Shown here piece after piece: positions 1-61,656 of a stretch of 64,000 bases of DNA. The stretch is from IMG/VR virus record IMGVR_UViG_3300028805_000116. One strand, written 5' to 3'. The notes under the pieces were generated by a model. The model saw only the letters and a program-made list of their open reading frames with translations, did no database searches and was not told the origin of the DNA. Positions within the stretch are counted from its first letter, which is position 1. Every line of letters starts with the position of its first letter. The position numbers and the translations under genes were made by a program. Source of the DNA: a virus.

Positions 1-843
1 AAAATTATATTTTTCTTTTATTTTAAAAGAATATCTTTTTAATTTATTATTAATATTTGTATTTATTTTATTATATTCTTTTAAATGTTTATTTTTAAAT
101 TCTTTTAAATTCTTTATATTATTATTATTTTCTTTAATTAATAATAATTTAAATTTATAATTTTCTTTATTTAATTCTTTATCTAATAATAGATTATAAA
201 TATTTTTTAATTCATCTTTAGTTATTTTATTATATTCTTTAATATAATCTAAAATATATTTATTATTAAAATTTTCTAAAAAATTACTTTTTAATTCTTT
301 AAAATTAAAAGTATTTAATTCATCTAAAGTTTTTAAATCTTTTTTAGAATATAGACTTTTTATTTTACTATTTAAATATTTTAGATTTAAAAAATAATCT
401 TTATCTAAAAAATTTAAAATAAAATAATTAATAATAGATTCATAAATACTTTTATCCATTGAATCTAGTTTTTTTCAGACTTTATCTATATATTTTTTAT
501 CATTTATTAGATTTATTTTATTTTCATCTAGAATTTTAATAAAATTTTCTAGATTATAAATATTAAAAAATTTATTTTCTAAATTTTCATCTATTAATTT
601 TTTTCTTTTTTCTTTATTTTCTTTAATATCTATTTTATTATTAATTAAATAATCTAATTCTATTAATTTATTAAAATTTTCTAAATTTTCTTTATTTTCA
701 TCTAAAAATTTATTAATATTTTTTTCATCTATTTTATTATATTCTTTTAGATCTATTCAATTTAAAGAATAATTAATTTTTAAATTAGATTTATATTCTA
801 ATAATTTAGAATTTTTAGATTTTAAATATTTTTTATCATACAT
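1..843 (-). CDS. Hypothetical Asn/Lys/Ile-rich protein, 3' part running off the left edge of the window. Region is ~12 % GC. In-frame TGA codons (reverse-complement 'tca') are read as sense.
   Basis: ATG at 841-843 on the minus strand. The frame stays open to position 1 only if TGA is read through. Composition is completely unlike the rest of the window. Confidence 0.35.
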
Positions 844-882
844 TTTTATAATAATTAAATAATAAAAAGTTTTTAAATAGTT

Positions 883-1107
883 TTAATTAGTTTTTAATAC
901 TTTAATTTTTTTAGATTTTTTATTCATATATTTATAATCTAATAAATATTTATCTATTATATTTATATTTATTAAATAAGTATTAAATAAATTTAAATAA
1001 TTTTTTTTATCTATCATTTTATTATTAAATAAAATTTTTAATTCTTTTATATCTTTTAAATAATCTTTTTTTAAATTATATAGATTTAGATATTTTTTAA
1101 TATTCAT
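883..1107 (-). CDS. Small hypothetical AT-rich protein (74 aa)
   Basis: ORF in the six-frame track ending in a genuine TAA. Same orientation and composition as the flanking AT-rich ORF. Confidence 0.35.
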   Translation of the reverse strand: MNIKKYLNLYNLKKDYLKDIKELKILFNNKMIDKKNYLNLFNTYLININIIDKYLLDYKYMNKKSKKIKVLKTN

Positions 1108-1435
1108 CTTTTTTAAATTAATTAAATAAAAATAAAATTTTCTAGAATAATAATAAAACTTTTAAAGAAAATAAAGTTTTTTTATATACTATATATTTTA
1201 ATATTTTTTTCATAAGTCAAGTATGAATAAATAAATATTATATCTGGATTATTTATATATTTATTATATCTAATTGCAAGAAAAAAAGCAAATTTTTATA
1301 GACTTTTTTATATTTAAAAATATTAATTCTAAACTAGACTTTTAAAAAATCTAAAAAGATTTTTTTCTAAAAAGATTATATTTTTAAATAGATTATTATT
1401 TTTATTTAAAACAATTCTAAAATATAATCCATCTA

Positions 1436-1478
1436 AAAAATAATCTATCTAAAAAATAATCTATCTAAAAATATTTTT
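1436..1478. repeat. Tandem direct repeat, 2 copies of aaaaaataatctatctaaa
   Basis: Two identical adjacent copies in non-coding AT-rich DNA. Confidence 0.6.
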
Positions 1479-1519
1479 TATTAAAATTTTTTTTTCTAAA
1501 AATAAAAACTTTTAAAGAA

Positions 1520-4141: not shown

Positions 4142-4492
4142 TGTAATAATAAATAAGTAATAAAAACGCAGTAAACAAAAAGCCCAACAAAGTCGTCGGG
4201 CACATTACACAAAATTCTCCACTACGTATTATAAGAGGTGTCCGAACTCTGTGTAATACGATGTCAGGCTTTTTGAATTTCTACACTATCCTATTTAGGG
4301 TAGAGAGAAAAAAATTCAAGAGAAATATTCCCCTGTATTTTTAGATTATATAAAAATGTCAAATTTTTATAACATTTTGTTAGGTCAGGTCTGATGTATA
4401 TTTTTTCGAAAATGTCAAATGAAAAATTTTTATAACACGAATAAAAAATATAATCTATTAATATAGAAACATATTTACTACCTATCATCACT
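4142..4492. promoter_or_regulatory. Divergent intergenic region between the leftward and rightward gene blocks. Contains two copies of aaaatgtcaaat(g)aaaaatttttataaca (about 4354-4380 and 4409-4438).
   Basis: Non-coding. Direct repeats lie between divergently oriented genes. Confidence 0.45.
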
Positions 4493-8293: not shown

Positions 8294-8334
8294 AGTTATA
8301 AAAATTTGCCACTTTTATATAATCTAAATATAGG
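8292..8334 (+). promoter_or_regulatory. Conserved promoter-like motif aaagttata...ttatataatctaaatatagg, copy 1
   Basis: Near-identical motif also found at 24511-24556 and 42386-42430, each immediately upstream of a gene start. Confidence 0.5.
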
Positions 8335-11743: not shown

Positions 11744-14700
11744 ATGGCAGTACAAGATTGTGATGATTTATCAAATATTATTGCTATATGAATATTGTCT
11801 TGAGATGATGATTTAGCTAAAGAGATAGTTAGGCTATCCACACAAAAGAGAGATTCGTTAGTTCGTGCTGGTAAACTTAAATGAGAAGATGCTGTGGAAG
11901 AAGCTACTTGACGAAGTGCTCACGAACTTGAATTAAAAGCCAATTCTGCTGATATAGAGCTCAGAGCTATTGTTCAAGCCAAAATCTTAACTTGAGAAAT
12001 TTGAAATGCGGAAGCGTATGTTGCTTTAGCAGAACAGATAACAAAGTCAGGATGAAGTATGTCTCAACAAATTAGTCTTTTAAATAAATTAAGAAGTGCT
12101 AAGGTTACAGATTTACAGGATATTGCTAAACTACGGTGATGAGCTTATAAAAATTATCCAGCTAAAGCTAAAAAAGAAATGGAAGAAGCTATAGCATCTA
12201 CTATTTCGGCTAACTATAGTATTAGAAAATATTCTGACTTTATGAGTTGAGAAGTTTCTGATTTAAAGACACAACTTAAAAATAAGAAGATAACTCAAGA
12301 ACAATATGAAGAGCAGATGAAATGACTCCATAAGAAGGTTATGGATAGAATAAACGCTTGAGAAAATCCAAAAGATTTTGTCCCTATTGATAAAGAATGG
12401 GATACTATAAAAAGAATTTACTCTACAGAGAATGTAGATTCTGATGCTATTACTGAAGTATTAGAATCCAGATGAAAAGCCTGGGTTCAATATGTAGCAG
12501 CTAGAGAATTATTAGCTGACTGAATGGTTGACGATGAATTACTTAAGGCTTTCGAGTCTTTGTTTGAAATGGATAATTTAGTAGGAGAATTAACTATTGA
12601 TGATATTGCTAAATTCTGAAAATGAGACTTAGATAAATTATTAGCCTTAGCCTTTACAAATACAGAACAATTATATAAAGATTGAATGCTAAGAGAGGCT
12701 TATAGAGCTAAACTTGTTGAGGTAACTTCTTGAATGAAAGTCTCTAAAGAGAATATAGCTAAAGCTACATCTATTATGAATACGATAGGTTTTGCTGAAC
12801 AATGAGCTTCCTTTGCTGATATAGCTACAGCTGACGCCGCAGCGCGTGCGGCTAGAAAGAGATGATTTAAGGTAAAAGATTGAAAAACTTTCTTGAATTC
12901 CTTAAAGTCATTCTTGAGAAAAGAAGAGGATAAAATGTTTGACTGACCTATTGTTATCGATTGAATAGAGATGACGGCTAAGGATATTATCCAAATTATA
13001 TACGATATAACTTGAGATGAAAATATCCTTAAGTTAATTAGAATAGGGTTTTATTCAGACGAAACTATATTATCTATTGCTACATCTAAATTGTTTAATG
13101 ATTCAGATGATGCTGCAAAGAAAATATTAAAATTATTTTCTAAGGCTTGAGATTGAAACACAATTGCCAATACTAGGAATATAGCTTTAAAAGCTATCAC
13201 TTGAGAAGAGATTAGAGAATGAGCAAAAATTGGATTCTTTAATTTTAGAAAAAATCTCTATTTTAAAGATGAATTAGATAGTGCTAAAGCTGAATTCTAT
13301 GATAAGTTAGCAGATAGAAATAAGATGAAGGTAGATTCATCTGATATTGAAGATATAACTCTAGATACTGATGATGCGGACAAAATAGCAGACAAACTAA
13401 GAAAATTTAAATGAGGGTATATTATTGTAAACGATGCTAGATATAAGACTAATAAGGCATTTAATGACGCTCTTAATAAGGTTAATAGTGAAATCAAGAA
13501 TGAAGAGGATAAGATAACTTGTATCTTTCCTAGATGATGAATGTCCTCTAGTTTTGTTATGGAATGAAAACAATTATACTTTAAAACTACAAACGCTAAA
13601 ATTTTCGATAATGTAGCTTGAACTATATCTATTCAATCTATGTGAAAATCTAGGCCGACAAGAGAAATTATTGCTAAAGCTTTTGAGGCTAAGACAGGTA
13701 AAAATGGAGATAAACTTAGATACCAGGCTAGTTATACTAAATGAGTATCTGATAGTCAATGAAGAAAACTTTCAGACCAGCAATACGAATATTTTAAAAA
13801 TTCTGTTGTGAGAGATGAGAATTGAAATTTAACCCCTGTATATCATTGAACTGTGGATAGATTCAATATCCCAGATATGTGAAAATCTAAGTTTGCTGCA
13901 CATTGACCTTGAATGTATTTTTCCACAAGTAGAGATGCTGCAGAAACATATTCTAGATTAAAAGATAATCGCTGGAACCCATTTAAGAAGCGTAGAATAA
14001 TAGAGGCATATCTTGATATTAGAAATCCTATAACTGAAGATACTGTTTGATTCGATGATGCTTGGTTAAATGAATTAGAAGCTCTATGATATATTATCGA
14101 TAGAGATATGGTTAAGAGACAGAAATGAAAGGTAAAAGATATATACAATGTTCTTTATATGTTTCAAGATAAAAAGAAGCAATGACAATTTGTTACAGAC
14201 TTTAAAAGGGTTACTTGATTTGATGGTATCAGAATAGATATGCGTTGAGATGAAAAGTATTGGATAGTATTTGAAGCTAATCAGGTAAAGTATGTAGATA
14301 ATAAATTACCTACAAGTAAGCCTAATATGAAGTATCAGGGAAGGGACAGTAATTTATTGTTTATAGAACAACCTACAGAAAAAGAAATAGATGATTACTT
14401 ATCTGAAAACAACGTGTCAGATATATTATTAAAGAGATTTTGAGAAGCTAAAAGTTTAGACGAGTGATTATTTATTACAAGGGATTGAAAAATAATTTCT
14501 TGAAGATATAGACCAGATATATATCCAGTTAATAAAATTTGGGATGATGCGTGATACAAATTAAATTTAGAACATCCTACTGCTATAGAAACTGCCGTAT
14601 TCGATTTGTGGAAAAATGTGGGGAAGGCTGACACGTATGAAACTGCATCTAAAATGCTTTTGGATAGAGCGATGGAAAAAGAATGATTAATCCGCATTCG

Positions 14701-17700
14701 CCCAAGAATTTTGTCTGATTGAAATGAGCTTATTATTACTATAGCTAGTAAAGAATTAAGCCCACAACAAAAGGCTGTTCTTTCGGAATATATTTCAAAA
14801 TTTAAAGAAGACTTTAGGGAATGAACTAGATGACAGATTACAGTAGAGGCCCAACGGACAGACAATAAGGGGATGTACCCTGGCGAGACTATTAATGTAG
14901 GCTTAAATACCAACATTAACGATATTGATAAAGTATTAAAAGAAAAAATAAATTCTCAAATTAGTGAGCATATTCCTGATGAACAAGTTTTAAAAAATAG
15001 AGCTAAACAAAAGGAGACTTATTGAGAAGGAATATCATTAATAAGGCTATGAGAAAAACAACCATCATTTATGAGACGTTTAGATGATTATGTTTCTCAG
15101 CAAGATGTAGCAGCAACTGATGCTATGAAGGCGCAGATGTTTACAAAAGATAGAACTGTTCAAGAAATAGCTGATGCTTATTGAGTATCTGTTGAGTTTG
15201 TAAAATGAACTAATATGATTGCTTGAGTTGAGGCTTATTGAGCGTATTGAGATGGTATTATCTATTTCACAGATATGGTTAAGGAGAGTACAGCTCCACA
15301 CGAATTGTTCCACGCCATATTTGATATGCACGTAGGTAAAGAACAACACGATAAATTACTCAAACAATGAAGTAAACTCTTCAATGTTAGTGAAGACGAA
15401 ATGGAGGAAATAATGGCAGATAGTTTTGCTCATTGGTTTAATACTTGAGAGTTTATTTACTGAGACGAACTTATAAAGGCTGCTAAAAAGAAGAGACCTA
15501 ATAAAGCAGAAAAATCATTTATAAATAAGGTATTAGAAGTCTTTAAAGACTTAAAGAAATGGTTATGATTAATGGATGACCATAGGGCTGAAGTTAAACA
15601 GATGTTCGACGATATGGTAAATATGAAATATCTACCAGACGCTTGAAAAGCTGTTGAAGCTACGGAAGCTATGATTAAATATAATGATGACTTGGAGAAG
15701 GCTGCTATAAAATACTACTGACAATTACTTTGAGATTACCAAGAAGACTTATCTCCAGAATATATTGAAAGGATTCGCACGAAACTTTCAGAAAAAACTT
15801 GAATTGATTTTAAATCTTTTGACCAAATCCAAGATAAGGCTCTACTATGGCAAAAGGTTGATGAAGCTTTTGTTGTAGATAAATTAGTTTCAGGTAGATA
15901 TGATAAAGAGATTGTAGATGTAGACAATTTAATTAATTGAATAGAGAAACTTACAGATAAAGAGTTAGAGGATGTTATATTCAAAGATTTATGAGTTTTA
16001 AGTAAATGATGAAAGGTTGTAGGTAGAGATACTATTGATGCAATAAGAAACGCATATATAGATTATAAAACTGCCTGAAATGCCGTAGATAGTTTAATAG
16101 CTAAAGGTAAACTTACAGCTTATATACATTGAACTGAGGCGCAGAATGTATCTATGGAAGATATAAGGGCAATATTCCAGAATTGAACATTCGCTCAAAA
16201 ATATAAAGAAATGTTCTTCCCTAATCAAAAACTTACAGCAAAAGAAGAACAAGAGATAATAAAACAAATCAATGATAATATATTTGATACTTTATCAATT
16301 CAGTTTGCTGAAAATTTAGTATCAGCTTGATATGAATTGCCTTTGATAAATATCAAAACATTTATGTATGACTATTTAAATTGAAAGTTAGACTTAAATA
16401 ACAAGTTTGTTGAAGCATTTCTTTATAAAAATAATATTCCATTTTCATCCGATTGATTAAGATGAATTGTAGATAGTTTAATGCCATCAGAATTAAACTT
16501 CAACTATAATTTCTCAAATTATTCATATTGACTTGGGCAAAGGCCTCACGTCTGAGAAAAGGCTGTGTTCAAGGAAGTTGATAATAGGTTTGTTATGGAC
16601 AGTTATTCAGCTTTAGCCTGAATAGAATTAGCTGCTAAGTGATGAATTCCTGAAAATGAGGAAAGGAAAATATTAGAAGAAATCCTTACTAAATATGTAA
16701 ACGAGGTAATTAAATGAGTCAAAGATTGAACGTTAGATTTCAAATGAGCTCAAGAATTAAAACAAGAAGTATGATATGCTTTAGATATGTTTGAACAGGA
16801 TATATTATTGCCTAAATATGGTATATTCTTATCTCCTCAAGAAAAGCAATGACTTATAGGAATGAAATATGACTTGCCTATTTGAGTAAAATGACAAAAC
16901 ATAACTAATGTGACTAAGCAGCTAAACGACATAAAACAGAAGCTCTTAAATAAATATGATAATACGCTATGAAGTATAGTAGAAAATAATGATATTAATG
17001 AAGCAATTCTTAAATGAATTAAAAGTGAAGATGAAAGAATACAAAAGAAAATAGATGCTAGAAGAGATATGTTAGCTGAGAGGTGATGAGTTATCAGAGA
17101 GGTTAATTGACAATATTTGGTATATAATGCTAAACAGGCATTAGAATATGCTTTAGAAGATTTGCCTCCAAGTATTAATTGATTAGAATGACTTAGAGTG
17201 CTATGAAAAGAATGAATTGATAAATTATCTAATCAACAGGCATATGCTTTACTTAGATATATAGAAGCTGCTAAAAGCCTAGATGCCACAGCTTGATATG
17301 CTATAGAGCTTATGTATAAACAAAACCCTATGCTACTTCAATATAATTTCTTTGAAGCATATAGAGTATGAGACCAATGAATTCCTAAAGCATTAGAATG
17401 AAATTCATTAAATTTTGACAAACTATTATCTAGATTAGAAAATACAGCTAAGCTTGATGAAACATCTAAGAAGAATATATTTGAATGAGTTATTAATAAG
17501 TTTAGAAAACAATGATATGTTACTAATGATGACTTAGATGATATTATTGATAAGTGAATAAAAGAAGCATACGCAACATATAAACAGTCGCATATGTCTC
17601 CTAAAGAGATAAAGAAAGCCGTAAATAAAATGAAGAATATTTACAAGAAAGCTTTCGCTCCTTACACTTATTTAAGAGATATTCCTTCTTGAGGAACTGT

Positions 17701-20700
17701 AGATTGAGTAGAATTCAGGAATATAAAATCTAAAGTAAGGGAGGCTATGAAACAGCAATACAATCAAGCTATGGAAGATTTAAAGTCGGTATGAATTACA
17801 AATACGGATTGAATTCAAGATACTATATATCTCACCCTTCCAACTTGACAGAAGATGTCTCTTAGAGATGCTTCTACATTAGATGTTGATAGTTGGAAAA
17901 AATGAATATTTAATGATGAAAGTGTTTATGTAGCTTGAGCTGATGAATTATGAGCTGCTTGAAAGAAGACTGTAGAAGAGCAAAAGGAGTTCAGGAAAAC
18001 TATGGTTAACGAATATGACTCGACATTACAGACTATACTGAACCAATCTCAGTTTATTAGCGAATCAGAAAGAGCATTACAAGGTTCTATTATGAGTGAC
18101 GTAAGGGCTATGTTAAGACAATGAAATCTTACAAACTTAATAGTAGATGCTTTAGATGCCGTAAGTTGACTTAATGAAGAGGCTGCTAGATGAATAAAGG
18201 ATTATCTTATCTGATGGAAGTGAAACGTTTCATTCTGAAAATGGAAGTCTTCTCAGATTATAGAGAGAAATGAATTAGTAAAGAAAGCATACGCACAATA
18301 TTATGCTATGGATTTGTCTAAACTTAATAAGGTAACTCCTTGAACAAAAGCAGAAGACTTAGCTTTAAGATTAGCAAGATACTTTAAAAATTTGGAAAGA
18401 TTATTAGGTAGTGCAGATTGAGTAACTTGATGTACTACAAGTAATCAATTAAATAGAGCGTTCTTCCATATAGGTGAAGTTGTTATGAATGTGGATAGTG
18501 TAAAGTGAATTTTCTGATTATTATCTGCGGTAGAACAAAACCAGATATTAAAGTTGTTTAAGTTTGCTAAGTGAGATTTAAGAAAACAAGCTGAGGTATT
18601 TATTCGTAAAGGTAAAGGTAATTTTACTGAGAGCCTTTGATGATATAGAGACTACGCAGAAGATATTAGTTGAATTACTAGAGATGAGTTCAATGAGATT
18701 TTCTGAACATCATTTAACGAGGACGATTTTAAGAAAATACTTCAATGACTTACAGGTTTCTCATTGGTATGATGAGTTACTAAACCTGTTATGAAAGCAT
18801 TGAATTTCTTGAGCTGAACTAATTTCATATTTAGAGCTGCAATGTCTTACCCTTGACAGCTACTTACAATTCCTTTACAAAGCACAGCATATTTCTTAAA
18901 ACAGATATGATTTGAAAGAGCTTTGGATATTGATAGCTTATCTGATATTGACGAAGTTAGAGTTCATTATTGAATTTTGGATTGAGCATATAACGAAATT
19001 AATTGGTTTAATAAAAAATATAGGGTTAGTCCAGATGATGTTAGAGTAGATAGTTACTATAATAGGTACTGAATCCCTGATGTAGAATGAATTTATAAAA
19101 CTACATCCATAGAGAGCAGTGATGATTACATAAATATGTATGCTAAAATTAATAATCAAACTGCATCAAGTATCAGTTCTACAAATAAATGGATAAGACA
19201 ACTAGACCCATATAAAGATAATGCAAATAACATTATAGACTGATTATTCGCTAGAAACTTTAAAAACATAGCGTTCCAAAAAGCTATAAGACAGAATGAC
19301 TTTATGCAATTTTCTTCAGCAAAAGAGTTCTTAGCCTTTATGGAAGACCCTACGGTATGAGGTTCTGTAAAGCAAAAACTATTAGATAGAGTTGCTGCTT
19401 ATTCAGGTAGAAACTTTAGAAATATCCTTTGATTAGGATTCTGATGAATTGATAGAGCTGTATGATGAAGTGGATTTGGAAACATAATGTACTGACTTAT
19501 GCAGATGTTTAACTTTAGATGAAGTTGGTGACAGAATATATTTAAACAAGCTTGAGCTGCTATTAAGACTTGACTAAAGATAGTGAAAGCAAATCCTTGG
19601 TTAAGTAGAGAATGAAGAGATGCCGTTGGTAGATATATAGCTACACAGCCAGAATTTATGAATTTTGTCTGAGCTTTATTTAATGACTTAAAACGAAGTT
19701 GGAGGTTACAAAGATTCCAAGATAATTGAAGATGGCCAGATAACGAAGATATGTATGTGACTACAGAGTTCTGAGATGTATTTGACGCATATTCAGCTTT
19801 AGATTTTATAGATTACTTAACAGAATCTTTAAGTCTTACTTCACAATTATTCCAGTGAATACAATCATTCTGACCTGCTAGACCAATATTAGAATGAGTA
19901 GAAAGCGCATATAAATCATATATGGACCCTACAATTTATAAAGATACATTCTGAATTTGAGCTTTCTTTAATGCTTTATGAAAGAACTTCTGAAGACAAT
20001 GGAAACCACATAACTGGATTGCTAAAGCATTATGAGCCTTAACTACAGATTGACCTGAGGCATTCTGGACATATGTACAAAATGAATGGTATAAATTATC
20101 ATTTGGTTCTGTAAGGTATATGGTTAATGAAGATAGTAATTCTTATGGATATACTTTCGAAATGACTTGACAACAATGATGAATTCCGTCTATTATAATG
20201 TGAGAATGAAAACAAGGTTCTGATAAAAATTTCTCTTATGAAATAGATAATACAGAGACTTGGGAGACTATAAAACAATTATTTAGTAGCTGAAACTCTT
20301 GGGACGATAGACTTACATATGCCTGAAATCTTTGAAAAGCATTTGTTAACTGAAGTCAGTTCTTTAGTTTATGGAAGAATGCTTGAAAGGCTTGGAATAG
20401 GAATGCTCCAAGTTATTATACAGCAGATGATTTAGCAGATGTTTTACAAAATACTGAAGCTTGATTAGAGTTTTACCAGAAATGAATTGTAACTCCTAAA
20501 ACAAAAGAAGAAGCTGAGATATTCTTTGATACAATATTAGAAAATTCTAAGTTCCGTCCTTGAAGTAGTAATTTTACTAAATCATTAATCAATTATGAGG
20601 ATTATTGACATATGAATGGTAAAGAGAAATGAAATGAAGCTGATGCTGAAATGGAACTTTGGCTAGACCATATGAAACACGTAACTGATGACCATTGAGT

Positions 20701-21952
20701 TATAAGAAAAAATTGAAGCGAGGAGACGGTTGACCCATCTTGGAATAAATTAATTAATGCTGTTAGAAGTTGAGCTTACAATGGAACTTATACAACAAAC
20801 TTGATTTATAACTATGCTAAGACTTGGTTAGACAACCATTCGTCTGACCCTAACTATCAGCTTTATCTTAAACTCTTATGACAATGACAAGCTCATAAAT
20901 TAATTGAGTCTACACAAGACGATATTATAAAAGCTTGGAATGCTGGTAAGAAATGAGTTGATAATAAATGGACGGAGACTGAGTTCAAAAACGCCTGATT
21001 AAGGAGAGATATGTTATTATCTATGTGAAACACTCCTTTACCTTGAGATACTGAAACATTCTTTGATAAACTACAAGTTCTAGATGAGGATAATGCCACA
21101 GTTGCAGCATTACAAATCATTCAGAACCAAGCAAAAGAATGAGATAGAAAAATTATTGATAAGTTCTTTAATGTAAAAGAGAATGATGATTGAACAAAGT
21201 CTGTTACATTAAGAAGACAATATGAAAGTACATTAACTCAGATTTGAGCTGTTGCTAAAGCTATTGATGAATGAAATCTTGAGAGGGCAATATCTGAATC
21301 TTCTATTCTTACAAATATGTATAAGAACCAAGACCCATCAGGAGCTGTAACTGCTACATTGATTGATAGTGTTGTTAATAGAATATACGATACAGATAGT
21401 TTTTCTCCTGAGCAAAAGCAAGAAGCTATTATAGCATTATTCCATCATAATAAAGAATTCATACAAAAGAATCCAGAAAAGCTAAGAGAATTATTATGAG
21501 ATGAATATGATACTTATGCTAATTATATGAATCAGATGCTTTATCAATGGGATTGAGCATTATTGTCTACATTAGAAAGTATGCAGACTAGCTGAAAAGG
21601 TTCATCTTGAACTGCTAAGAAAACTAAAGCTACTTCTAGTGAATTGAAGAAATTAGCCGCCTCTCTAGGTAATGAATGATGAGCTAGAGGAACTTGAACT
21701 GTATGAAGCACAAAATCTTGGGTACCTGTTATTATTAAGTGAGCAGACTTAGTAAAGGAGTTATGAGTAAAATGATATACTCCTAATAAGGTATCATTGT
21801 CTATAAATGCTTATAAGCCTAAGATAGATTTAAGTATAGCTAAAGATATTAACAGAAAAGTTAAATGACCTAAGACACAACAGATATCAAACAAAAAACA
21901 ATTAAGTAAACTTGAAGATAAGGTTACAAAAGCTACTGAAGCAGAAAGTTAG
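11744..21952 (+). CDS. Giant protein, ~3402 aa, polyvalent-protein-like. HExxH zincin-like motif PHELFHAIFDMH at about 15296-15330. H-Y-E-class ADP-ribosyltransferase-like motif VYHGT...GPGMYFSTS near 13850-13950.
   Basis: Single frame from ATG 11744 to TAG 21950-21952. Same frame mod 3 as track ORF 21317-21499 which lies inside it. No TAA/TAG over 10.2 kb, >150 in-frame TGA. Confidence 0.6.
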
Positions 21953-22095
21953 TTAGTACCATAAACAAAAATAAAATAAGACATACAAAATATCTCAGAT
22001 GGAGTATTCTCCATCTTGAGAGTTGTATGTGTCTTAAATTATTTTTCATAACGAAAGTACCTGATATTTCTTTTATATTTTTATGCCAATAAATT

Positions 22096-24510: not shown

Positions 24511-24556
24511 AAAAGTTATAGTAAAAACCTAAAAATTTATAATCTAAATATAGGAA
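24511..24556 (+). promoter_or_regulatory. Conserved promoter-like motif aaaagttatagtaaaaacctaaaaatttataatctaaatatagg, copy 2
   Basis: See 8292-8334. Confidence 0.5.
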
Positions 24557-42385: not shown

Positions 42386-42430
42386 AAAAAGTTATAACAA
42401 AACCCTTAAAATATATAATCTAAATATAGA
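42386..42430 (+). promoter_or_regulatory. Conserved promoter-like motif aaaaagttataacaaaacccttaaaatatataatctaaatatag, copy 3. Followed by a 9-bp stem hairpin at 42445-42481.
   Basis: See 8292-8334. Confidence 0.5.
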
Positions 42431-46331: not shown

Positions 46332-46383
46332 AAATCGCAGGTACTTTCGTAGTCAAAAATAAAATAAGACACGTTAATATATT

Positions 46384-46420
46384 AAGGTGGATAATTGTTC
46401 CACCTTTAATTTATTTCATA
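46384..46420 (+). terminator. Rho-independent terminator (aaggtgga-taattgt-tccacctt + T-run). Part of a ~50-bp element repeated at 48733-48785.
   Basis: 8-bp perfect stem followed by taatttatttc. Confidence 0.5.
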
Positions 46421-46431
46421 ATTTATACATT

Positions 46432-47358
46432 ATGGAAAACTTAACAGAAGAACAAATAAAAGCTTTTGAATGAGCTCTTACATTACCAGAAGATATGGCT
46501 GAAGCCACAGACTTCGAAGCTACAGAAGCAATTAAAGTTGATTATGACGTTAAGCTCCCAGAGTTCTTTTCTCTATGAAAATGGATTTACAAGACTTCTA
46601 ATCAATGAACTCTTTGAGCTTGTACTTCATTATGAACTACGCATTGAGTACAAATCTTACAGGTAAAAAAGAATTGAGTAGAGCCAACAGATAGGAATAT
46701 AATTACTCCACAATGGAAGGACCTATGGAGTAAGATGGGTCACTCAACTACTAAATATGATGGTTGAGACTATGTAGAGAAAGCCGTATCAACTGCGTTA
46801 AAGGAATGAATTCTTATTGAGGAGAATTGACAATTAGCTAAATTCGATGCTTATGCTACTTGAGAATGGGATAGAAGCGATAAGGCTATCGACCTAATGA
46901 AGAGATATCTTTATCAAGGTTGCCCTATTGTGTGGTGTGTAAGGTGAGATAAAACAACTTGGAGCGAGATGACTAAATGAGAAATCAAAACTGTTCCTAC
47001 AACTCCTACGGGATGACATTGTATAGCACTTGTCGGTTGGGATAATTGAGGATTCTGGTTTGTTAATAGCTGGAGTGCTAACGATGGTAAGAAACTTAAA
47101 TCTAGGTTCTACATTTCTTTTAAGACTATGAAAGATTTTGGATATAGATTTAACTATAGATATTGGGTTCTCTATATGAAAGAAGACGAAGCTAAAAGTG
47201 CAGAATATCTAAAGAGAAAGAATAGGGCTTTAGTAGTATTGCAAGCCCTTAAAAAATTATATCCTGAAGAGAACTCAGATGTTAAGATAGGGATTGAAAC
47301 TTTAAGCAGAGCTCTACGTAAAAGTTATCCAGAGCTTAATACAGATTTACCGTTGTAA
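46432..47358 (+). CDS. Papain-like (C1-type) cysteine peptidase, 308 aa. Catalytic-type motifs NQGTLGAC, GGHCIALVGW, NSWS. Candidate endolysin/peptidase.
   Basis: ATG 46432. Same frame as track ORF 47128-47358. TAA 47356-47358. Q/C/H/N-S-W order matches the papain fold. Confidence 0.5.
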
Positions 47359-48716: not shown

Positions 48717-48820
48717 AACCATAGGTAGTACCGTTATCAAAAATAAAATAAGACACATAAAAATATTGAGGTGGACAATTATTCATCTCAGATAAAATTT
48801 TACATTAAAATAGATAACCT

Positions 48821-53588: not shown

Positions 53589-53596
53589 CCCCATTA

Positions 53597-54166
53597 TCAT
53601 CTAGGCAAACTAAAATCAACTGCTAGAGCGTCTGTTCATCTAACTCTAGGCTTAGGCTTTGGAGTGGGGGCTTGGGTCCCCAAGTACTCGGGCTCCGAAA
53701 TTTTGGCTGGCATTTCGGGTTTCGCTACTAAATTAACCTTTTTCTCAGCCATAGTCTTTTTATAGGTTTCTATCTCCTTATCCAAGGAGTCATTTTCATT
53801 TTTAATTCTTTCTAGAGTTTCTCTCTTAGCTTTATTCGATTCAAGGTATTCCTTTATTAAGGTCTTACTTTCTTTAGCAATAACCTTAAAAGGCTCGTCT
53901 AATGACGAGATTGTCTGTGTATATAAATCCATAACTACTGTTGCTAATTGGAACTTGTCCAATCCTACTTTGTGAGTTTCTAGATATTCCTCACATACTT
54001 CAATTAGCTTTGCATTTATATCGTCAAGCATAGCGTCAGCATCTGCTTTATTATGCTTAACAATCACTTCCAATCATACCTTCTCTAAAGAGAACTCTAG
54101 TATTCATTGGTACACAGTTATAAATTGGCTCAACACTTTGCGTGTTGCTTTAGCTGTTGTCTGCAT
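53597..54166 (-). CDS. Hypothetical protein, ~189 aa. Pro/Lys-rich C-terminus.
   Basis: ATG 54164-54166 (minus) upstream of the track ORF. TAA 53594-53596. Confidence 0.4.
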
Positions 54167-54710
54167 CGTCTAAATCATTTTCCGTTATAAATCTTCTTAT
54201 TTTTAAAGCTATCGTTTCCACAATGCTTTTTACATTATAATATGAAGTTTTCATTATCCTAGCAATCTCATACTTTCATCTACCCTGCCCAAGGTATTGA
54301 AGTATTTGACTTTCTAGTGGGGTAATAATGTTATTTGCTACTAGAACATAGTCTAGTATATCAATATCCATATCATAACTTCGGTGTTCACTATCTCTAA
54401 TATCATCAATAGTATAACTCTCAAGTCAATACTGATTAATCTTATTGTAGAGATAACCACCTCATCTATTAAATAGATACCATAACTTAGAGATTTTCTT
54501 CTCTTCAGGTAAGTCCTCTCTAAGTATGATATTATCAGCTAAGAGAAATGCCTCTGAAAGAATATCTTCTTTTGTGTAAGTGTTATTCTTTATTCTTAAT
54601 AATGGGTTCTTTCTCATCAAAAGAGACATATTGTCGTAGAGAAATATTCTCCCATCATCTATATTTTTAGAATATTCACTTAGCACACGTTCGTAAATAT
54701 TCTTTGGCAT
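54153..54710 (-). CDS. ECF-like sigma factor / LuxR-type HTH regulator, ~185 aa. Region-2-like EDILSEAFLLADNIIL...KLWYLFNR. Region-4-like HTH TPLESQILQYLGQGRGKYEIARIMKTSYYNVKSIVETIALKI.
   Basis: Track ORF 54462-54710 extended through TGA to TAA 54150-54152. Confidence 0.5.
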
Positions 54711-55182
54711 TTTGTTTTTATTCTGGTAAAGCTAACTCATCCTCTAAACAACGAGCACAAGTCACTAAGGTTTTTATTCATAGGAATTTGCTTACACATT
54801 CATACATATATTGGTAAGCTGTTTCTGCTAAATGGATATAATCTAAGTCATCCATTTTTGTATTTAATAATTCTTGACTAAATTGATATGAAGCTATAGC
54901 GTGCTTAACCAAGCATCGCATATGGTCATCACATTCAATAGCCATTTCTTTTAGTTTTCTCATAGCTAACCTTCTCTCTTCCAAGAGGCTTTCCATTTTC
55001 GTCTCGTGCCATATACTTTGCTCTTCCAAATCAGCAGCTTCATCTTCTGAGAAGATTTTTCTGTTGTTTAAGTCTACTTGTAGAGAATTGTATAGTTCAT
55101 TATGATGAGAATAGCTAGCAATAAGATTAGCTATAAGTTCTATCAGCTCTGTAGCTGCTCAACGTTGACTATCTTTATTCAT
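54682..55182 (-). CDS. Hypothetical Cys/His-rich protein, ~166 aa, overlapping the sigma-factor gene start. Speculative anti-sigma/zinc-binding.
   Basis: ATG 55180-55182 to TAA 54679-54681. Confidence 0.35.
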
Positions 55183-55186
55183 TTTA

Positions 55187-55933
55187 CATTCTATCTAAAC
55201 TGTTTTCAGTTGTCTCTATTTCTCCCTTATGCACTCAGAGAAGATACTCATAAAGCTTTTGCTTTACGAACTCCTCAGCTTCTTCTCTAGTAACAAAATG
55301 GGTAATATTCTGATGCTGTATCGTCTTCTGCTTTGTAAAGATAAGATAACTAAAAGCTAACGTATCCACGTCTGGATGAGCAAGGAATTGAAACCAAGGA
55401 TAAAATCTACCTTGAAAACATTCAAAATCCCATTTTTCTTTCTCATTCCATTTTTTCTTAGCCGTCTTGCAATCAAACAAAGCGACACCATCCATTCCCC
55501 AATCTATTTCACCAGTTAAAATAACCTTATACCCAGAGAAATCTACTTCTACTGCGCTCCTTAAATTTCTAATATCATACATACCAAGAGCTTCGTATTG
55601 TTTTGATAAAGGAATTAATTGGTCAAGTCCATCATAAAGCCGCTGGAATTGATTATCAAGGACTCAACTAGGAGAGTAGTACTTCATCCTTTCAGGATTC
55701 ATCATCCTTCTACAGATTTCGATTTCCTTACGAGCAAAGTCTTCTCATTGATTAATATTGGCGAAGATTATATTTTCTATTAAGTTTCAAACCCAGTAGG
55801 TATTAGCCTTTTTCTTAGGTGGTAATTCTGTGACAAATGAAGGCTTAGGAGTAAGAGCCTTCTCGATTTCCGTAACGGATACAATAATAGTTTTATAATC
55901 TTCTTTGAGTGGTGCGAATTCGTGGTATAGCAT
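55187..55933 (-). CDS. YqaJ/lambda-exonuclease-like PD-(D/E)XK nuclease, ~248 aa (...TGEIDWGMDGVALFDCKTAKK...)
   Basis: ATG 55931-55933 to TAA 55184-55186. Contains track ORF 55235-55582. Confidence 0.4.
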
Positions 55934-56798
55934 CTTCGGTATAGAATATTAACTAAATTAGAAAGGAAGCTCATCTACAGGTGGAACTTCTTTTGTAGCA
56001 GGTTCTTCTCAAGCTGATTGCTTAGAAGAGGCTTCGTGATATTCTCTTAATTCCTGCATATGTTTATTTCTCCATTCCCTATCTTCTTCAGACATATCAT
56101 CACCTATCTTAAATGTAGGAACTGAATAATCTGTACTTCCTGTAGATAATTCTTTTTCATCTCAGAAAGATATTTTCTTACTAAGGAAAGCAAATGCTTT
56201 ATCGTCTTTGAAAGTTTCTCACCATTCTCAAGATGCAGAACTTTTAAGACAGATAGTAAAGATTTCTTCAGGATTTTTTACATCAAAACAATGTAAGTTT
56301 CTAAATAGTTTTAACCCAACTCAAGTTACTTCTGGTTTAATATCTTTCCATAAACCTTTATACAATACTTCATTTCAAGATAATACTGTAATAGGTTCAG
56401 AGAAATCATAAATTTCTGGCCCCCAAACTCAACCTTTAGTTTGGAGATAACCTTTTACATTCCAGCTCTCAGAAATAACTACAAACTCTTTAGGCATATC
56501 TTTAAGAGCAAAAGTTTTTTCAACTCAAGCATCTCTGTCCCATACCTTAAAGCATCCATCTTCAATTTTTTCTTTATTAGCTTTTCATTTAGCATCTTTT
56601 ACTAAACCAAACTTAGCACTTTTCCAATCATACCAACCTGTTGTTGGATGTTTCATTCAGCTAGTAGCTGAACCTTTTTTCTCGATGTCGTCAAAAAACA
56701 TTTTTTATAATAATATAATATAAAGATACTCTTAAAGAGGATAACCTCTTAAAGACAAAACCTTTATAAGGATTTAAAATCCTTTGTCAAGAGAATTT

Positions 56799-56990: not shown

Positions 56991-59361
56991 AACGTCTATC
57001 TTTTCTTTGGTGATGATTTTAATAGTTCAGTGATTATATACTACAGTATAACCACCTACACTTTTATATGGATTCATTTCTTTTATTTTCTTAATGTAAA
57101 AGTTTTTGTTTTGCTATAGATATAAAGTCTGCATATCTTACCCTATCATAAATTCTCTCTCCTATTAGTCTGAATCTAATCGTGTAGGGATAACTTTTCC
57201 CCATATGGCAAAGGAGCCATCGGCCCTTCAGACCTAAAAGGAATTCAATTTCACTAGAGAAATCTGCATTGACTTCATCTGTTCGTTCTAATCATTCAGC
57301 CTTAGCTTGCTGTTTAAGTTCAGCAATAGCTTCAGATAAAGTTAAGTTCTTACCTTTAGTTTTCATCTACATAACTTTTTTTATAAATTCTCTTGACTTA
57401 GAGTTATAAATGATTAATATAGACTCCGCTGTCAATACAAAGCTAATTGACATTTTCTATTTTTCTACTCAATTAGCGTGTCCGTTGTATCGGCAGATTC
57501 TAAATCATTTTTTCTTGTGAATCTTTAATGAGATTCAAACACTTCTAAACTTTGGGGTAAAGGATACAGAAGTGATAATGTGGTGAGCGTTTGTTTCAAC
57601 TAACAACCATTCACCATTTCAATCAGCAAATAGATAACTCCAGGATTTACTCTCACCTGGGGTTACTATCATTTGCTCTACAAGTTCGTTACCTATTCTA
57701 TCACGAACCCATTTTAAAGGATAATAACTATTCATATTTTAACATATAGGAATAAAACAATCTTTGGACTTTAAATAAAAGCCCCAAGGCAGAGTAAACC
57801 TATTAGTATTATGTTCAACCCATAGATATCATTCTATAAGTCAGACTACTTCTACATAATAGCTTACTCCTCCTTGAGGCATTTTTATTATATCCCCTTT
57901 TTTTAAGAGAATATGTGGGATTACTCTCATTTTTTGTTTTTGTTTTTGCTGGCTAAATAATTACAACACATTTAAAATAAAGTTATAGTTTTAATTTGCA
58001 AGTCTTTTTTAAAGAGGTATAGTCATCCACTTGAACTAATCTAGCTCAAGTTTTTTTATAGCTGAGTTATAGTTCTTCACCCAGTGAGAACATTCACTAG
58101 CACAATATTTTCCCCTGAGCCAATCGTTTCAAGTGACTCTAGTCTCCCGACCATTCCTAACGTACATCGCAACCCATTCTTTTATGGATTCTTCAACGCT
58201 TGAGAATTTCTTTTTCTTTCAGTTATACATCCATCAAAATCAATTATTGCTTGGATACATAGCCTGTTTAAACATACCCGACTCAGCATTGCTGACTCAA
58301 ATTACATTTTTAATACATTGCTTATAGTTATCAGTCTGCGTAGCACACTCGTGAACTATAGCATAACTAATAGATTCATTCCCAACTAATGAATTTACCT
58401 TTTCGACAAGCTTCTGTTCTGTCATTTCTCGGGTGTAGATGATAGTTTCTTCTACAGTTGTAGCTCAAGTTAAGACATCACCTGTAAGTGAAGTAGCTTG
58501 TTCAATAATTAAATCCTCACCGTGTCATAGGTTAAATCAAAATATAAATACTAAGATTGTAACCATAACTATAATAAGGATTTTTAGTCGCTTAGTTGTC
58601 ATACTTTGGTTTAAGATTTAAATCTTCCCAACCTATATTTCTATAGAGAAGGTGCAGACTATACCTCTTGCCCTCTTTAGAATAGTTCCAGACCGTAGTC
58701 CGAGCTGTGCGAACACCTATTCTTGGCTGAGGCTTCCACCTCTCCAAACATTATTTCTTTTGCACATATCTTGATAACGGCATAACGCTTCAAATAAACA
58801 TTTTCTACAGCTTTCAATTTCAATTCATTTCTCGCAAACTCTTTTCTTCTCTTCTACTTTTTCTTTGCTGTAGAAGTGTTCCTTTATAATTTCTTCTCAT
58901 CTCGACATATAATCTATTGTAAAGAAATAAAATCCCCATATATAGATTATATATTTAAGATAAATTTTAATAACCTATTCCTTATCAAAAGGTACTTCTA
59001 ATTGGTTTTCATCTTTCTTTCTATCTTCACCTTTATAATGAGCAATTAAAGCTCTAGCTAATTCCATAGCCCTTTCTTCATTTCAAGGTATCCCAGCTAT
59101 CTCATTTAATTCTTGAGCGGCTTTTTCTAATTCGTACTTATTCATTAATCTGTATATTGCATAATGTTAAAAAGTCTATTAGGTAACTCTTCATCGTGTT
59201 TATGTTGCCTAAGTTTTTTAATTATCTTCTTATATTGATATGGGCGGAGACTTCCATAATAGGAAGACTTCTTATTATTTTTCCATTTTCAATATTTATC
59301 TTTTCGCACGTGACGACAATATGAGCAATGACAGCAACCAAAGCCCATACTGATAAAATTA

Positions 59362-60551: not shown

Positions 60552-60876
60552 CCTTCAATATTTTTCTTTCAAGTCTACCGTCCCCCAATTTATTTCTGCT
60601 AGCTCCTTCATTGTGTTATATCGATAATCGTACCATTTAGCTTTCTTATCTACACTAGGAGTGAATGGTTTAAATCGTCTCATTATCCTTTTACTAACTC
60701 AATAAAATCATCTAACTCTTTATCAATCATTCATCTTATGATATTCTTCAATTCCTCATATTGAGTGATTTCTGGATTATCAAAAGATGGTTCTCATAGG
60801 TGGTCTAGATTAGCATAGGAATCAACCACATCCATTATTTCATTAGCTAATTTTTCTGCTATACTTATCATTTTTA

Positions 60877-61656
60877 TTGCATCATCATTATAAATGAACT
60901 ATCTTCTCAGGCCATAGTTACAGGTAATTTACCATCCCATCTTTCAATCCATTTTAATTTTACATATTCAGCACCTCATTGGTTTTGAATAGCTTTAGCT
61001 TGGATTTCAATAGCCTTAGCTTGCGCCTCAGCTGCGACAACCTTTTGGTCAGCTTCATACTTTACTTTCTCTAGCTTATTCTTTTCGGCAAGAGCATTCT
61101 GTTCAGCGGTAACCTTAGCCTCAATTGCATCGTTGAATGATTTACTAAAGTTAAAGTTTACAATATTGAATAACTGAATTTGGACTCCGTATGGTTCAAG
61201 CCTTTTGTTCAATGTTTCTTCAATGTTTTTAGATACATCACTTCTTTCAGTAATCAATTGCTCTGCTGAATATTTAGCGACTACTGCTTTAAATACTTCT
61301 TGAATAGCAGGAGTAATAATCTTTTCAGCTACTTTTTCTTCTTTACCTACATTCTTGTATAGGTTTACTACTTCGCTTTCCTTGTACTTGTAGTTCACTA
61401 CTATTGTGGCACCTACACTCTGCAAGTCTTTTGAACTAGCATCAGCTGTAGCATCTAATTTTTGCGTCTGTACATTATATTTTACAGACTTAGTAATGAA
61501 TGGAGTTTTAAAATGTAATCCATCCGTGTAAACAGTACTGTTAACTTTTCCTAGTGTAACAGTAAATCAGTTGTATCCAGGTTCAACTACAAACCAAGAG
61601 TTAAAACCACAGATTACTAACAAGAGTATGACAATACTCCAAACAAATTTTTTCAT
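60877..61656 (-). CDS. SPFH/band-7 (prohibitin/stomatin-like) membrane protein, ~259 aa. N-terminal TM helix MKKFVWSIVILLLVICGF. SPFH core includes ...ITPAIQEVFKAVVAKYSAEQLITERSDV...AEAQAKAIEIQAKA...
   Basis: Track ORF 60976-61425 extended upstream to ATG 61654-61656 and downstream through TGA to TAA 60874-60876. No TAA/TAG in frame. Confidence 0.5.

What the first reader, a model, noticed from the sequence alone, without database searches (positions are those of the whole stretch)
54153..55182. Phage-encoded ECF-like sigma factor with an overlapping upstream Cys/His-rich partner ORF
The 185-aa product has a region-2-like segment (EDILSEAFLLADNIIL...KLWYLFNR) and a region-4/LuxR-type HTH (LESQILQYLGQGRGKYEIARIMKTSYYNVKSIVETIALKI). 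Its start overlaps a 166-aa ORF with C..H..C..H and C..C clusters, an arrangement reminiscent of sigma/anti-sigma pairs. It may drive the conserved promoter motif above.
Basis: partly seen in the sequence, partly recalled or inferred. Interest (0 to 1): 0.6.

Follow-up and report, generated by a model that had tools for sequence, protein, structure and literature searches.

The report
Divergent phage sigma-like factor with zinc partner
A phage that reads the stop codon TGA as glycine encodes a small protein predicted to fold like a bacterial sigma factor, next to a conserved probable zinc-binding helper. No sequence profile recognises it as a sigma factor, and its function is inferred, not shown.

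Summary
The two ORFs are real only under genetic code 25 (TGA = Gly). The downstream gene is 54150-54710 (-), 186 aa. The upstream gene is 54718-55182 (-), 154 aa, not 166. It ends at a TAA 7 nt before the next ATG, so the two genes do not overlap.

Both proteins belong to conserved, unannotated metagenomic families (88 and 75 clusters). They stay adjacent in relatives down to about 25% identity.

No Pfam or NCBIfam sigma model reaches its threshold. Only the C-terminal helix-turn-helix is detectable by sequence (hhalign against sigma region 4, P about 6e-8). The region-2 match is marginal.

The partner is a confident helical bundle with invariant C-x3-H and C-x2-C. It shows no anti-sigma domain similarity and no ZAS motif.

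Verdict: probably a very divergent ECF/SigH-like phage sigma factor in an early/middle operon. The partner's role and the target promoter are unknown.

The parts
54150..54710 (-). Sigma-like gene, 186 aa under code 25. It has three in-frame TGA (Gly) codons at 54462-54464, 54426-54428 and 54276-54278, and a TAA stop at 54150-54152. Its last 17 nt overlap the next gene (53594-54166).
   Evidence: 88 homologous clusters
54420..54710 (-). N-terminal helical domain (residues 1-97), predicted to resemble sigma region 2. The model has helices 5-15, 17-26, 47-63, 69-81 and 84-97.
54522..54578 (-). Residues 45-63, YTKEDILSEAFLLADNIIL. This is the only N-domain stretch that aligns by profile to ECF region 2.1/2.2 (RpoE 44-60, GDVPDVVQEAFIKAYRA). 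D49 and E53 are invariant; a nearly invariant Ser occupies the position of the Gln in RpoE's DVVQE.
   Evidence: hhalign score 20.8-21.0, P 0.003; decoy controls 16.8-19.7; invariant columns
54177..54377 (-). C-terminal helix-turn-helix domain (residues 112-178), of the sigma region 4 / LuxR-GerE type.
54718..55182 (-). Partner gene, 154 aa, with TGA (Gly) codons 8 and 135 and a TAA stop at 54718-54720. It is predicted as a helical bundle (helices 9-39, 46-78, 86-108, 113-133, 143-151). It starts 1 nt after the preceding 249-aa gene and ends 7 nt before the sigma-like gene.
   Evidence: 75 clusters; AF2 pLDDT 92.8; phrog_15722, function unknown, E 5.8e-9
54901..54915 (-). Codons C90-L-V-K-H94 of the partner. 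C and H are invariant and one helical turn apart, so they are candidate zinc ligands.
   Evidence: invariant columns; kept in relatives of about 38% identity
54748..54759 (-). Codons C142-A-R-C145 of the partner, part of the invariant T-C-x-R-C-L motif. Candidate zinc ligands.
56763..56790 (-). Near-consensus sigma-70-type promoter, TTGACA-N16-TATAAA. It lies in the 97-nt gap upstream of the tightly packed 247aa-249aa-partner-sigma gene run. It is the likely host-RNAP promoter of the operon (inference).
48724..48755 (+). One of four copies of motif 2, GGTAsT-N8-CAAAAATAAAATAAGACA, each followed by a hairpin. The others are at 21952-21983 (+), 46340-46371 (+) and, inverted, 22030-22061 (-). It is a non-sigma-70-like element upstream of the portal operon, a Cys-peptidase-like gene and a 472-aa gene. 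It is a candidate, untested, target of the phage sigma-like factor.
   Evidence: 4 matches against 0 expected; conserved in L001 and in about 13 metagenome contigs
8295..8326 (+). One of four copies of motif 1, GTTATA-N17-TATAATCTA. The others are at 4342-4373 (-), 24515-24546 (+) and 42391-42422 (+). A related site at 58951 (-) heads the leftward gene run that contains the sigma-like gene. The canonical TATAAT suggests host primary-sigma promoters.
   Evidence: 4 matches against 0.01 expected

Best explanation
The 186-aa protein is a very divergent two-domain member, or analogue, of the sigma-70 superfamily. It is ECF/group-4-like or SigH-like, with sigma-2 plus sigma-4 and no region 1.1 or region 3. 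It is encoded by a code-25 (TGA = Gly) phage, presumably of Absconditabacteria or Gracilibacteria.

The gene sits in the leftward replication/recombination gene run. Relatives have the order DnaB, about 225 aa, about 245 aa, partner, sigma-like. The run is probably transcribed early or mid-infection by host RNA polymerase from sigma-70-type promoters.

Inferred mechanism: the protein binds host core RNA polymerase. The helix 47-63 (DDILSEAF) would contact the beta-prime clamp helices, and the C-terminal HTH would contact the beta flap and a -35-like element. This would redirect the enzyme to phage-specific promoters. The best candidate target is the non-canonical, phage-conserved motif 2 upstream of the portal, lysin-like and other late genes.

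The co-transcribed 154-aa helical protein, with invariant C-x3-H and C-x2-C, is probably a zinc-stabilised partner that modulates this step, as inhibitor, co-factor or RNAP-binding protein. The direction of its effect is unknown.

Shown: the genetic code, the gene structures, family conservation, synteny, the HTH similarity and the fold similarity of a predicted model. Inferred: RNAP binding, promoter choice, zinc binding and any partner-sigma contact.
For: - Code 25 and intact ORFs.
- A conserved family of 88 clusters with no annotation.
- The AF2 model (pLDDT 78) has two helical domains joined by a disordered linker.
- All top 50 Foldseek PDB hits are sigma factors or sigma-like domains aligned over nearly the whole model. 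The best are B. subtilis SigH (9a4r_A, E 1.8e-3, prob 1.00), SigL (6dv9_F, E 8e-3) and sigma-E (1or7, E 0.05).
- Sub-threshold but consistent sequence hits. The family profile against PDB sigma-H gives E 0.02-0.03. TIGR02937 sigma70-ECF spans residues 43-173 at E 0.045. The SigH-like model NF006147 is hit by 16 of 42 members, best E 4.8e-4. phrog_351 'sigma factor' gives E 0.011.
- hhalign against 11 ECF sigmas: C-domain Prob 91-95%. The only N-domain match falls on the collinear region 2.1/2.2 helix.
- The order partner then sigma-like is kept in L001, L013, L014 and L016, at sigma identities down to about 25%.
- The genes lie among early/middle-type genes: RusA, and a DnaB-like helicase in relatives.
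- Phage-specific conserved non-canonical elements lie upstream of late genes.
- Lytic-cycle phage sigmas are known to be very divergent from bacterial ones (PMC9429907).
Against: - No sigma profile passes its threshold. Pfam gives only sub-threshold GerE and no Sigma70_r2.
- Iterated profile searches of 5.8 and 1.84 billion proteins never bridged to an annotated sigma factor.
- The region-2 hhalign score of 21.0 is barely above the reversed decoys at 16.8-19.7.
- The C-domain matches LuxR/GerE regulators as well as it matches sigma-4.
- The model is of a 91%-identical homologue that carries one Trp artefact from code-4 translation. Its pTM is 0.46, and the fold-search E-values are weak (1.8e-3 to 0.9).
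- The helix expected for regions 2.3/2.4 is interrupted by a conserved G-G-G.
- Motif 1 promoters carry a canonical TATAAT and precede several structural gene blocks, so host sigma alone might suffice.
- The most divergent clade (L015) has the sigma-like gene without the partner.
Confidence: 0.6

Rival explanations
1. The protein is a LuxR/GerE-type DNA-binding transcription regulator, activator or repressor. Its family-specific N-terminal helical domain would serve dimerisation or partner binding. It would act on host sigma-A holoenzyme at phage promoters or operators and would not replace sigma.
For: - The only family-level sequence hits that recur are LuxR-type. GerE gives E 0.0006-0.0016. 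EpsA (LuxR) is hit in 17 of 42 members and BglJ in 13 of 42. DesR, NarL and VraR appear in the PDB profile search at E 0.017-0.06.
- The N-domain similarity to sigma-2 is not significant by sequence.
- NCBI names a fragment 'helix-turn-helix transcriptional regulator'.
- Motif 2 begins with a short inverted repeat, GGTA-n-TACC, which would suit a dimeric regulator.
Against: - The top 50 Foldseek hits include no LuxR-type regulator. Almost all of the alignments span both domains.
- Isolated sigma-2 domains match the N-domain over nearly its whole length.
- The 186-aa size and the domain order are those of ECF sigmas.
- The sub-threshold TIGR02937 and SigH-like matches span both halves of the protein.
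Confidence: 0.25
2. The pair forms a two-subunit specificity factor or an RNAP-remodelling module. In analogy to T4 gp55/gp33, SPO1 gp34/gp33 or B. subtilis SigO-RsoA, the zinc-binding helical protein would be an obligatory co-factor. Alternatively it would be an inhibitor of host sigma-A. In neither case would it be an anti-sigma of the phage factor.
For: - The two genes are adjacent and conserved from 99% down to about 25-38% identity.
- The longest-contig lengths listed for the two families coincide for at least 11 pairs.
- In L014 the two genes overlap by 14 nt.
- The partner lies upstream of the sigma-like gene, unlike typical sigma/anti-sigma operons.
- The partner has long helical hairpins of the kind used by RNAP-binding factors.
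Against: - The P0192 clade carries the sigma-like gene without any partner homologue nearby.
- No interaction was tested.
Confidence: 0.1
3. A classical ECF sigma / zinc-binding anti-sigma (ZAS) pair. The partner would sequester the sigma until a redox or zinc signal releases it.
For: Adjacent, co-conserved genes. Invariant Cys/His residues in a cytoplasmic helical bundle.
Against: - The HxxxCxxC ZAS signature is absent. The ligand candidates are C-x3-H and, 47 residues later, C-x2-C.
- No Pfam or PDB sequence hit.
- The gene order is reversed relative to most ECF operons.
Confidence: 0.05

Closest known systems
ECF (group 4) sigma factors, e.g. E. coli sigma-E (RpoE; 1or7, 2mao) and M. tuberculosis SigL (6dv9)
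   Different: No Sigma70_r2 or r4_2 profile hit at threshold. Ser replaces the Gln of RpoE's DVVQE. A G-G-G break lies in the presumed 2.3/2.4 helix. No GGAAC/CGT-type promoter was seen. The neighbouring gene is not a recognisable anti-sigma and lies upstream.
SigH-type sigma factors (B. subtilis SigH/Spo0H; Fusobacterium nucleatum sigma-H, 3mzy; NCBIfam PRK08295 models)
   Different: All scores are far below the curated cut-offs. Identity is about 15-22%. The host lineage and the function (sporulation or competence control) are unrelated.
Phage-encoded lytic-cycle sigma factors (SPO1 gp28 and gp34 with gp33; T4 gp55 with gp33; phiEco32-type gp36)
   Same: Small and highly divergent. Phage-encoded and expressed from an early/middle module. 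Expected to switch host RNAP to later phage promoters. Some need a second small phage protein.
   Different: No detectable sequence similarity. tblastn against 50,697 phage records finds nothing, and phrog_351 gives only E 0.011. The host uses code 25. The partner is a Cys/His helical bundle unlike gp33.
LuxR/GerE-family C-terminal effector domains (NarL, DesR, VraR, GerE)
   Same: The C-terminal four-helix HTH scores as well against these as against sigma-4.
   Different: There is no receiver or ligand-binding domain. The N-domain resembles sigma-2 in the model. No LuxR regulator appears in the Foldseek top 50.
Zinc-binding anti-sigma (ZAS) domains (RsrA, RslA, RsiW, ChrR)
   Same: A small cytoplasmic helical protein with conserved Cys/His, encoded next to a sigma-like gene.
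   Different: No HxxxCxxC motif. No structural or sequence match. Five helices including two about 30 residues long. Upstream gene position.

Membership tests
Sigma-70 family, group 4 (ECF) | Significant match to Sigma70_r2 (PF04542) or to whole-protein sigma-70 models (TIGR02937) | tested here: not met
   No PF04542 hit at E <= 1 in the query or in 42 + 17 + 10 relatives. TIGR02937 gives E 0.045, 13.4 bits against a cut-off of 42.9.
Sigma-70 family, group 4 (ECF) | Region 4 HTH (Sigma70_r4 / r4_2) | tested here: inconclusive
   Sigma70_r4_2 gives E 0.17 in 1 of 17 members. hhalign against the ECF sigma-4 part gives Prob 91-95%, P 9e-7 to 6e-8. GerE/LuxR domains score equally well.
Sigma-70 family, group 4 (ECF) | Two-domain sigma-2 + sigma-4 architecture without regions 1.1 and 3 | tested here: met
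Sigma-70 family, group 4 (ECF) | Region 2.2 core-binding motif (the D-x-x-Q-E pattern, DVVQE in RpoE) and the region 2.3/2.4 helix | tested here: inconclusive
   D49 and E53 are invariant and S52 is nearly invariant in place of Q. The profile alignment to RpoE 44-60 scores 21.0, against decoys of 16.8-19.7. The second helix is broken by G83-G85.
Sigma-70 family, group 4 (ECF) | Binds core RNA polymerase and confers promoter-specific initiation | not testable with these tools
   Needs biochemistry or complex modelling.
ZAS anti-sigma factors (for the partner) | HxxxCxxC zinc motif within an anti-sigma domain fold | tested here: not met
LuxR/GerE transcription regulators | GerE (PF00196) domain above the gathering score | tested here: not met
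   18.5-19.9 bits against a cut-off of 23.5, in only 4 of 42 members at E <= 0.1.
Code-25 (Absconditabacteria/Gracilibacteria-type) phages | TGA read as glycine throughout the coding sequence | tested here: met
   TGA 5.07% + GGN 2.7% gives a normal Gly content, and TGG is 1.17%. W/G alternate in the columns of code-4-translated homologues. Such phages are described in PMC10746230.

The most novel reading that the evidence does not exclude
This may be a previously unrecognised sigma-factor lineage specific to TGA = Gly phages of CPR bacteria. It would work together with a dedicated zinc-binding helical partner, as a two-protein switch. It would recognise the unusual conserved element GGTAGTACC-N5-CAAAAATAAAATAAGACAC upstream of late genes. 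That would give the first concrete handle on transcription control in Absconditabacteria/Gracilibacteria phages and on their hosts' RNA polymerase.
Probability: 0.2. Interest if true: 0.6.

Novelty: new variant of a known kind. Interest (0 to 1): 0.42.

Why it matters
Phage-encoded sigma factors are a classical way to time gene expression. All known examples come from phages of cultivated, standard-code hosts.

This family is invisible to Pfam, NCBIfam, PHROGs and standard annotation. In NCBI only a 104-aa fragment, truncated by code-11 translation, carries a name. It is found only in TGA-recoded metagenomic phage contigs.

If it is a sigma factor, three things follow:
- Code-25 phages reprogram the RNA polymerase of uncultivated CPR hosts.
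- The conserved non-canonical upstream elements would be defined as testable promoters.
- A new zinc-binding partner protein would be added to the repertoire of sigma modulators.

It also shows that genes in such windows must be translated with code 25 before any annotation is attempted.

Tried and rejected
- Table-11 ORF calling fragments both genes.
- Code 4 (TGA = Trp) was rejected. It would give 5-10% Trp, whereas TGA plus GGN gives a normal Gly content.
The 91%-identical P0001 and the 99%-identical P0089 were modelled instead.
- tblastn against INPHARED phages found nothing.
- IMG/VR (two scans) and the GTDB representative genomes (two scans) gave no relatives. The first scans of each were handicapped by W/G columns that are TGA in the DNA.
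- The HMM search of 1.84 billion representatives and the iterated profile search gave only other unannotated phage proteins, with no bridge to known sigmas.
- hhalign in global mode gave a meaningless result.
- The narrow family profile (Neff 2.1) saw only 40 columns of the HTH. Adding remote members was needed.
- The generic sigma-70 promoter scan is uninformative in this AT-rich DNA: 81 sites found against 71.5 expected.
- The motif-2 scan of metagenome contigs returned loci too short to test co-occurrence with the sigma-like gene: no sigma or partner ORF within them.
- No tRNA and no Rfam family was found in the window.

Full report
**Observation.** Under the bacterial code the region 54153-55182 holds only fragments, because in-frame TGA codons break the reading frames. 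The whole window is recoded.

- Reading TGA as sense raises the DNA in ORFs of at least 100 aa from 15 kb to 77 kb.
- In 39 long ORFs TGA makes up 5.07% of codons, GGN only 2.7% and TGG 1.17%. TGA is therefore glycine (code 25), not tryptophan.
- Database homologues were translated with code 4. They show W and G alternating in the same alignment columns, which is independent support.

With code 25 the downstream gene is 54150-54710 (-), 186 aa, with TGA at codons 83, 95 and 145 and a TAA stop. The upstream gene is 54718-55182 (-), 154 aa, with TGA at codons 8 and 135 and a TAA stop. The upstream ORF, however, is not 166 aa and does not overlap its neighbour. It ends at a genuine TAA 7 nt before the next ATG. 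Homologues of 150-160 aa agree with this.

**Both genes are real and conserved.** The 186-aa protein has 88 homologous clusters at 55-91% identity. The 154-aa protein has 75 clusters. All come from metagenome assemblies and none carries a Pfam domain. The only name in any source is 'helix-turn-helix transcriptional regulator', given to a 104-aa fragment truncated by code-11 translation in a Methanobrevibacter MAG.

The order 249 aa, 154 aa, 184 aa recurs in an 82-kb contig at about 63% identity. In remote relatives (sigma-like about 25-28% identical, partner about 38%) the order is DnaB, about 225 aa, about 245 aa, partner, sigma-like. In L014 the two genes do overlap, by 14 nt. One very divergent clade (L015) has the sigma-like gene without a partner. 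No relative was found in INPHARED, IMG/VR or the GTDB representative genomes.

**Sequence-level tests of the sigma hypothesis.**

- Pfam finds only GerE, below threshold (residues 129-171, E 0.0016). Sigma70_r2 is never hit, in the query or in 69 relatives.
- PHROGs gives phrog_351 'sigma factor' at E 0.011.
- NCBIfam gives TIGR02937 (sigma70-ECF) at E 0.045, spanning residues 43-173, and the SigH-like NF006147 in 16 of 42 members (best E 4.8e-4). LuxR-type models (EpsA, BglJ) score similarly. All are far below their cut-offs.
- Family profiles against PDB sequences give sigma-H 3mzy at E 0.02-0.03 and SigA at 0.012, mixed with LuxR-type regulators.
- An HMM search of 1.84 billion representatives found only 18 hits. 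An iterated profile search found 105. All are unannotated.

I built an 11-sequence ECF alignment. I compared it with the W-to-G-corrected family alignment using hhalign.

- The C-domain matches sigma-4 with Prob 91-95%, P 9e-7 to 6e-8.
- The N-domain matches only over residues 39-63 / 45-61. These align collinearly with RpoE region 2.1/2.2: YTKEDILSEAFLLADNI against GDVPDVVQEAFIKAYRA. The score is 21.0, P 0.003.
- Column shuffles reach at most 12.6, but reversed decoys reach 16.8-19.7.

By sequence alone, therefore, the HTH is established and region 2 is at the detection limit.

**Fold-level tests.** It carries one Trp artefact from code-4 translation. The result has pLDDT 78, two helical domains (1-97 and 112-178) and a disordered linker.

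- Foldseek against the PDB returned, in the top 50, only sigma factors or sigma-like domains. These include SigH, SigL, SigD, sigma-E, AlgU, SigW, CnrH, WhiG, sigma-S, sigma-A and PhyR. Alignments span 132-279 columns. E-values are weak (1.8e-3 to 0.9) and probabilities reach 1.00.
- From my own knowledge of the sigma-E structure (not a tool result), the predicted helices 47-63 and 69-97 lie at about the positions of the sigma-E helices for regions 2.1/2.2 and 2.3/2.4. The second is interrupted by a conserved G-G-G.

The consistent picture is a sigma-2 + sigma-4 architecture. It rests on a predicted model.

**The partner.** AlphaFold gives a confident helical bundle (pLDDT 92.8; helices 9-39, 46-78, 86-108, 113-133, 143-151).

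- H26, C90, H94, C142 and C145 are invariant.
- C90 and H94 lie one helical turn apart. The C-terminal C-x2-C forms a plausible structural zinc site with them. This is inference, because the model coordinates could not be inspected.
- The anti-sigma reading has no positive support beyond adjacency. A co-factor or an RNAP-binding role is equally possible.

**Context and a working model.** The window is a phage genome segment.

- The rightward block (about 4.5-50 kb) holds a portal and, judging by size and repeat content (not tested against profiles), probable terminase, capsid and tail-fibre proteins, plus a 3402-aa protein.
- The leftward block (50-64 kb) holds RusA and small genes. A DnaB-like helicase lies at 2179-2958.
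- The sigma-like gene lies in the leftward block, packed 1-24 nt from its neighbours.
- A near-consensus TTGACA-N16-TATAAA lies at 56790-56763 (-), upstream of this gene run.

No DxDGD RNA-polymerase signature was seen in the window's proteins. Use of host RNAP is therefore the simplest assumption.

Two conserved non-coding motifs exist.

- Motif 1 is GTTATA-N17-TATAATCTA (4 sites against 0.01 expected). It has a canonical -10 element. It precedes both replication genes and structural genes, and a related site heads the run that contains the sigma-like gene (58951 (-), conserved in L001). This points to the host primary sigma.
- Motif 2 is GGTAsT-N8-CAAAAATAAAATAAGACA plus a downstream hairpin (4 sites against 0 expected). 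It precedes the portal operon, a Cys-peptidase-like gene and a 472-aa gene. It is conserved in L001 and in about 13 metagenome contigs. It is not sigma-70-like, so it is the better candidate target of a phage sigma. Nothing links it to this protein experimentally, and the retrieved loci were too short to test co-occurrence.

**Comparison and verdict.** The closest known systems are ECF and SigH-type sigmas, by fold, size and HTH. Functionally the closest are the divergent lytic-cycle phage sigmas such as SPO1 gp28/gp34 and T4 gp55, which are known to be hard to recognise (PMC9429907). Code-25 phages of Absconditabacteria and Gracilibacteria have been described; the terms 'sigma', 'RNA polymerase' and 'transcription' do not occur in that paper (PMC10746230).

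Membership in the sigma-70 family is not established by any curated profile. The claim 'works like a sigma' rests on predicted structure and context.

My confidences are about 0.6 for a divergent phage sigma factor, 0.25 for a LuxR-type regulator with a novel N-domain, and the rest for other partner-centred models. Novelty: a new variant of a known kind. Interest is moderate.

Noticed in passing
whole window: The window uses genetic code 25 (TGA = Gly): TGA is 5.07% of codons, GGN 2.7% and TGG 1.17%, and stops are TAA (35) or TAG (4). No tRNA gene and no Rfam family was found, so no phage-borne suppressor tRNA is evident in these 64 kb.
   Followed up: yes
window 1-1500: An extremely AT-rich stretch (14.6% GC over 1-2000) full of short direct and inverted repeats, including a 3 x 16-nt tandem TCTAAAAAATAATCTA at 1416-1471. 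It may be a replication origin or a terminal region.
   Followed up: partly
window 4342-4373 (-), 8295-8326 (+), 24515-24546 (+), 42391-42422 (+); weaker 4449 (+), 58951 (-): Motif 1, GTTATA-N17-TATAATCTA(AATAT), occurs 4 times against 0.01 expected. It looks like a strong sigma-70-type promoter with phage-specific extensions. The 58951 (-) site (TATAATCTATATATGGGGATTTTATTTC) is identical over 28 nt at the syntenic place in L001, whose proteins are about 60% identical.
   Followed up: partly
window 21952-21983 (+), 22030-22061 (-), 46340-46371 (+), 48724-48755 (+); L001 12598 (+), 17668 (-): Motif 2 is (A)GGTAsTACC-N5-CAAAAATAAAATAAGACAC followed about 13 nt later by a GGTGGA...TCCACC hairpin. 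About 13 of the 119 loci retrieved from the metagenome-contig scan carry the extended element. The 21952/22061 pair is inverted and could also form a long hairpin after the 3402-aa gene.
   Followed up: partly
window 62248, 62550, 62773, 62962 (-): Four copies of AATCAGACTTTTATATTATTTAC, each 10-30 nt upstream of a small leftward ORF. They may be a third promoter or regulatory class, or the trace of duplicated small genes.
   Followed up: no
window 11744-21952 (+): A 3402-aa ORF with 244 TGA/TGG positions when read with code 4. It has an HELFH zincin-like motif at residue 1186 and a stretch that looked to me like an ADP-ribosyltransferase segment. It may be a polyvalent, injected virion protein. 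No profile search was run on it.
   Followed up: no
window 55184-55933 (-) and 55958-56701 (-): The two genes upstream of the partner (249 aa and 247 aa; the latter is phrog_6706, function unknown) are syntenic with about 245-aa and about 225-aa genes that follow DnaB in relatives. The 249-aa protein has a D...FDCK pattern reminiscent of a PD-(D/E)XK nuclease, which suggests a recombination pair.
   Followed up: no
L015 (contig SRR13444042_1089, 81.6 kb): The most divergent clade of the sigma-like family (P0180, P0189-P0194) lacks the partner gene. The nuclease-like 221-aa gene directly precedes the sigma-like gene.
   Followed up: partly
window 60874-61656 (-): A 260-aa protein with a strong match to phrog_200 (E 8e-53, annotated 'lipoprotein'), and with an N-terminal hydrophobic segment. 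It is an unusual accessory gene in the leftward block.
   Followed up: no
window 46387-47358 (+): The real start is probably the internal ATG (MENLTEEQ...). The GTG called first lies inside the motif-2 hairpin. By eye the product has a Cys/His peptidase-like pattern (GACTSLG...GGHC), so it is a candidate endolysin.
   Followed up: no
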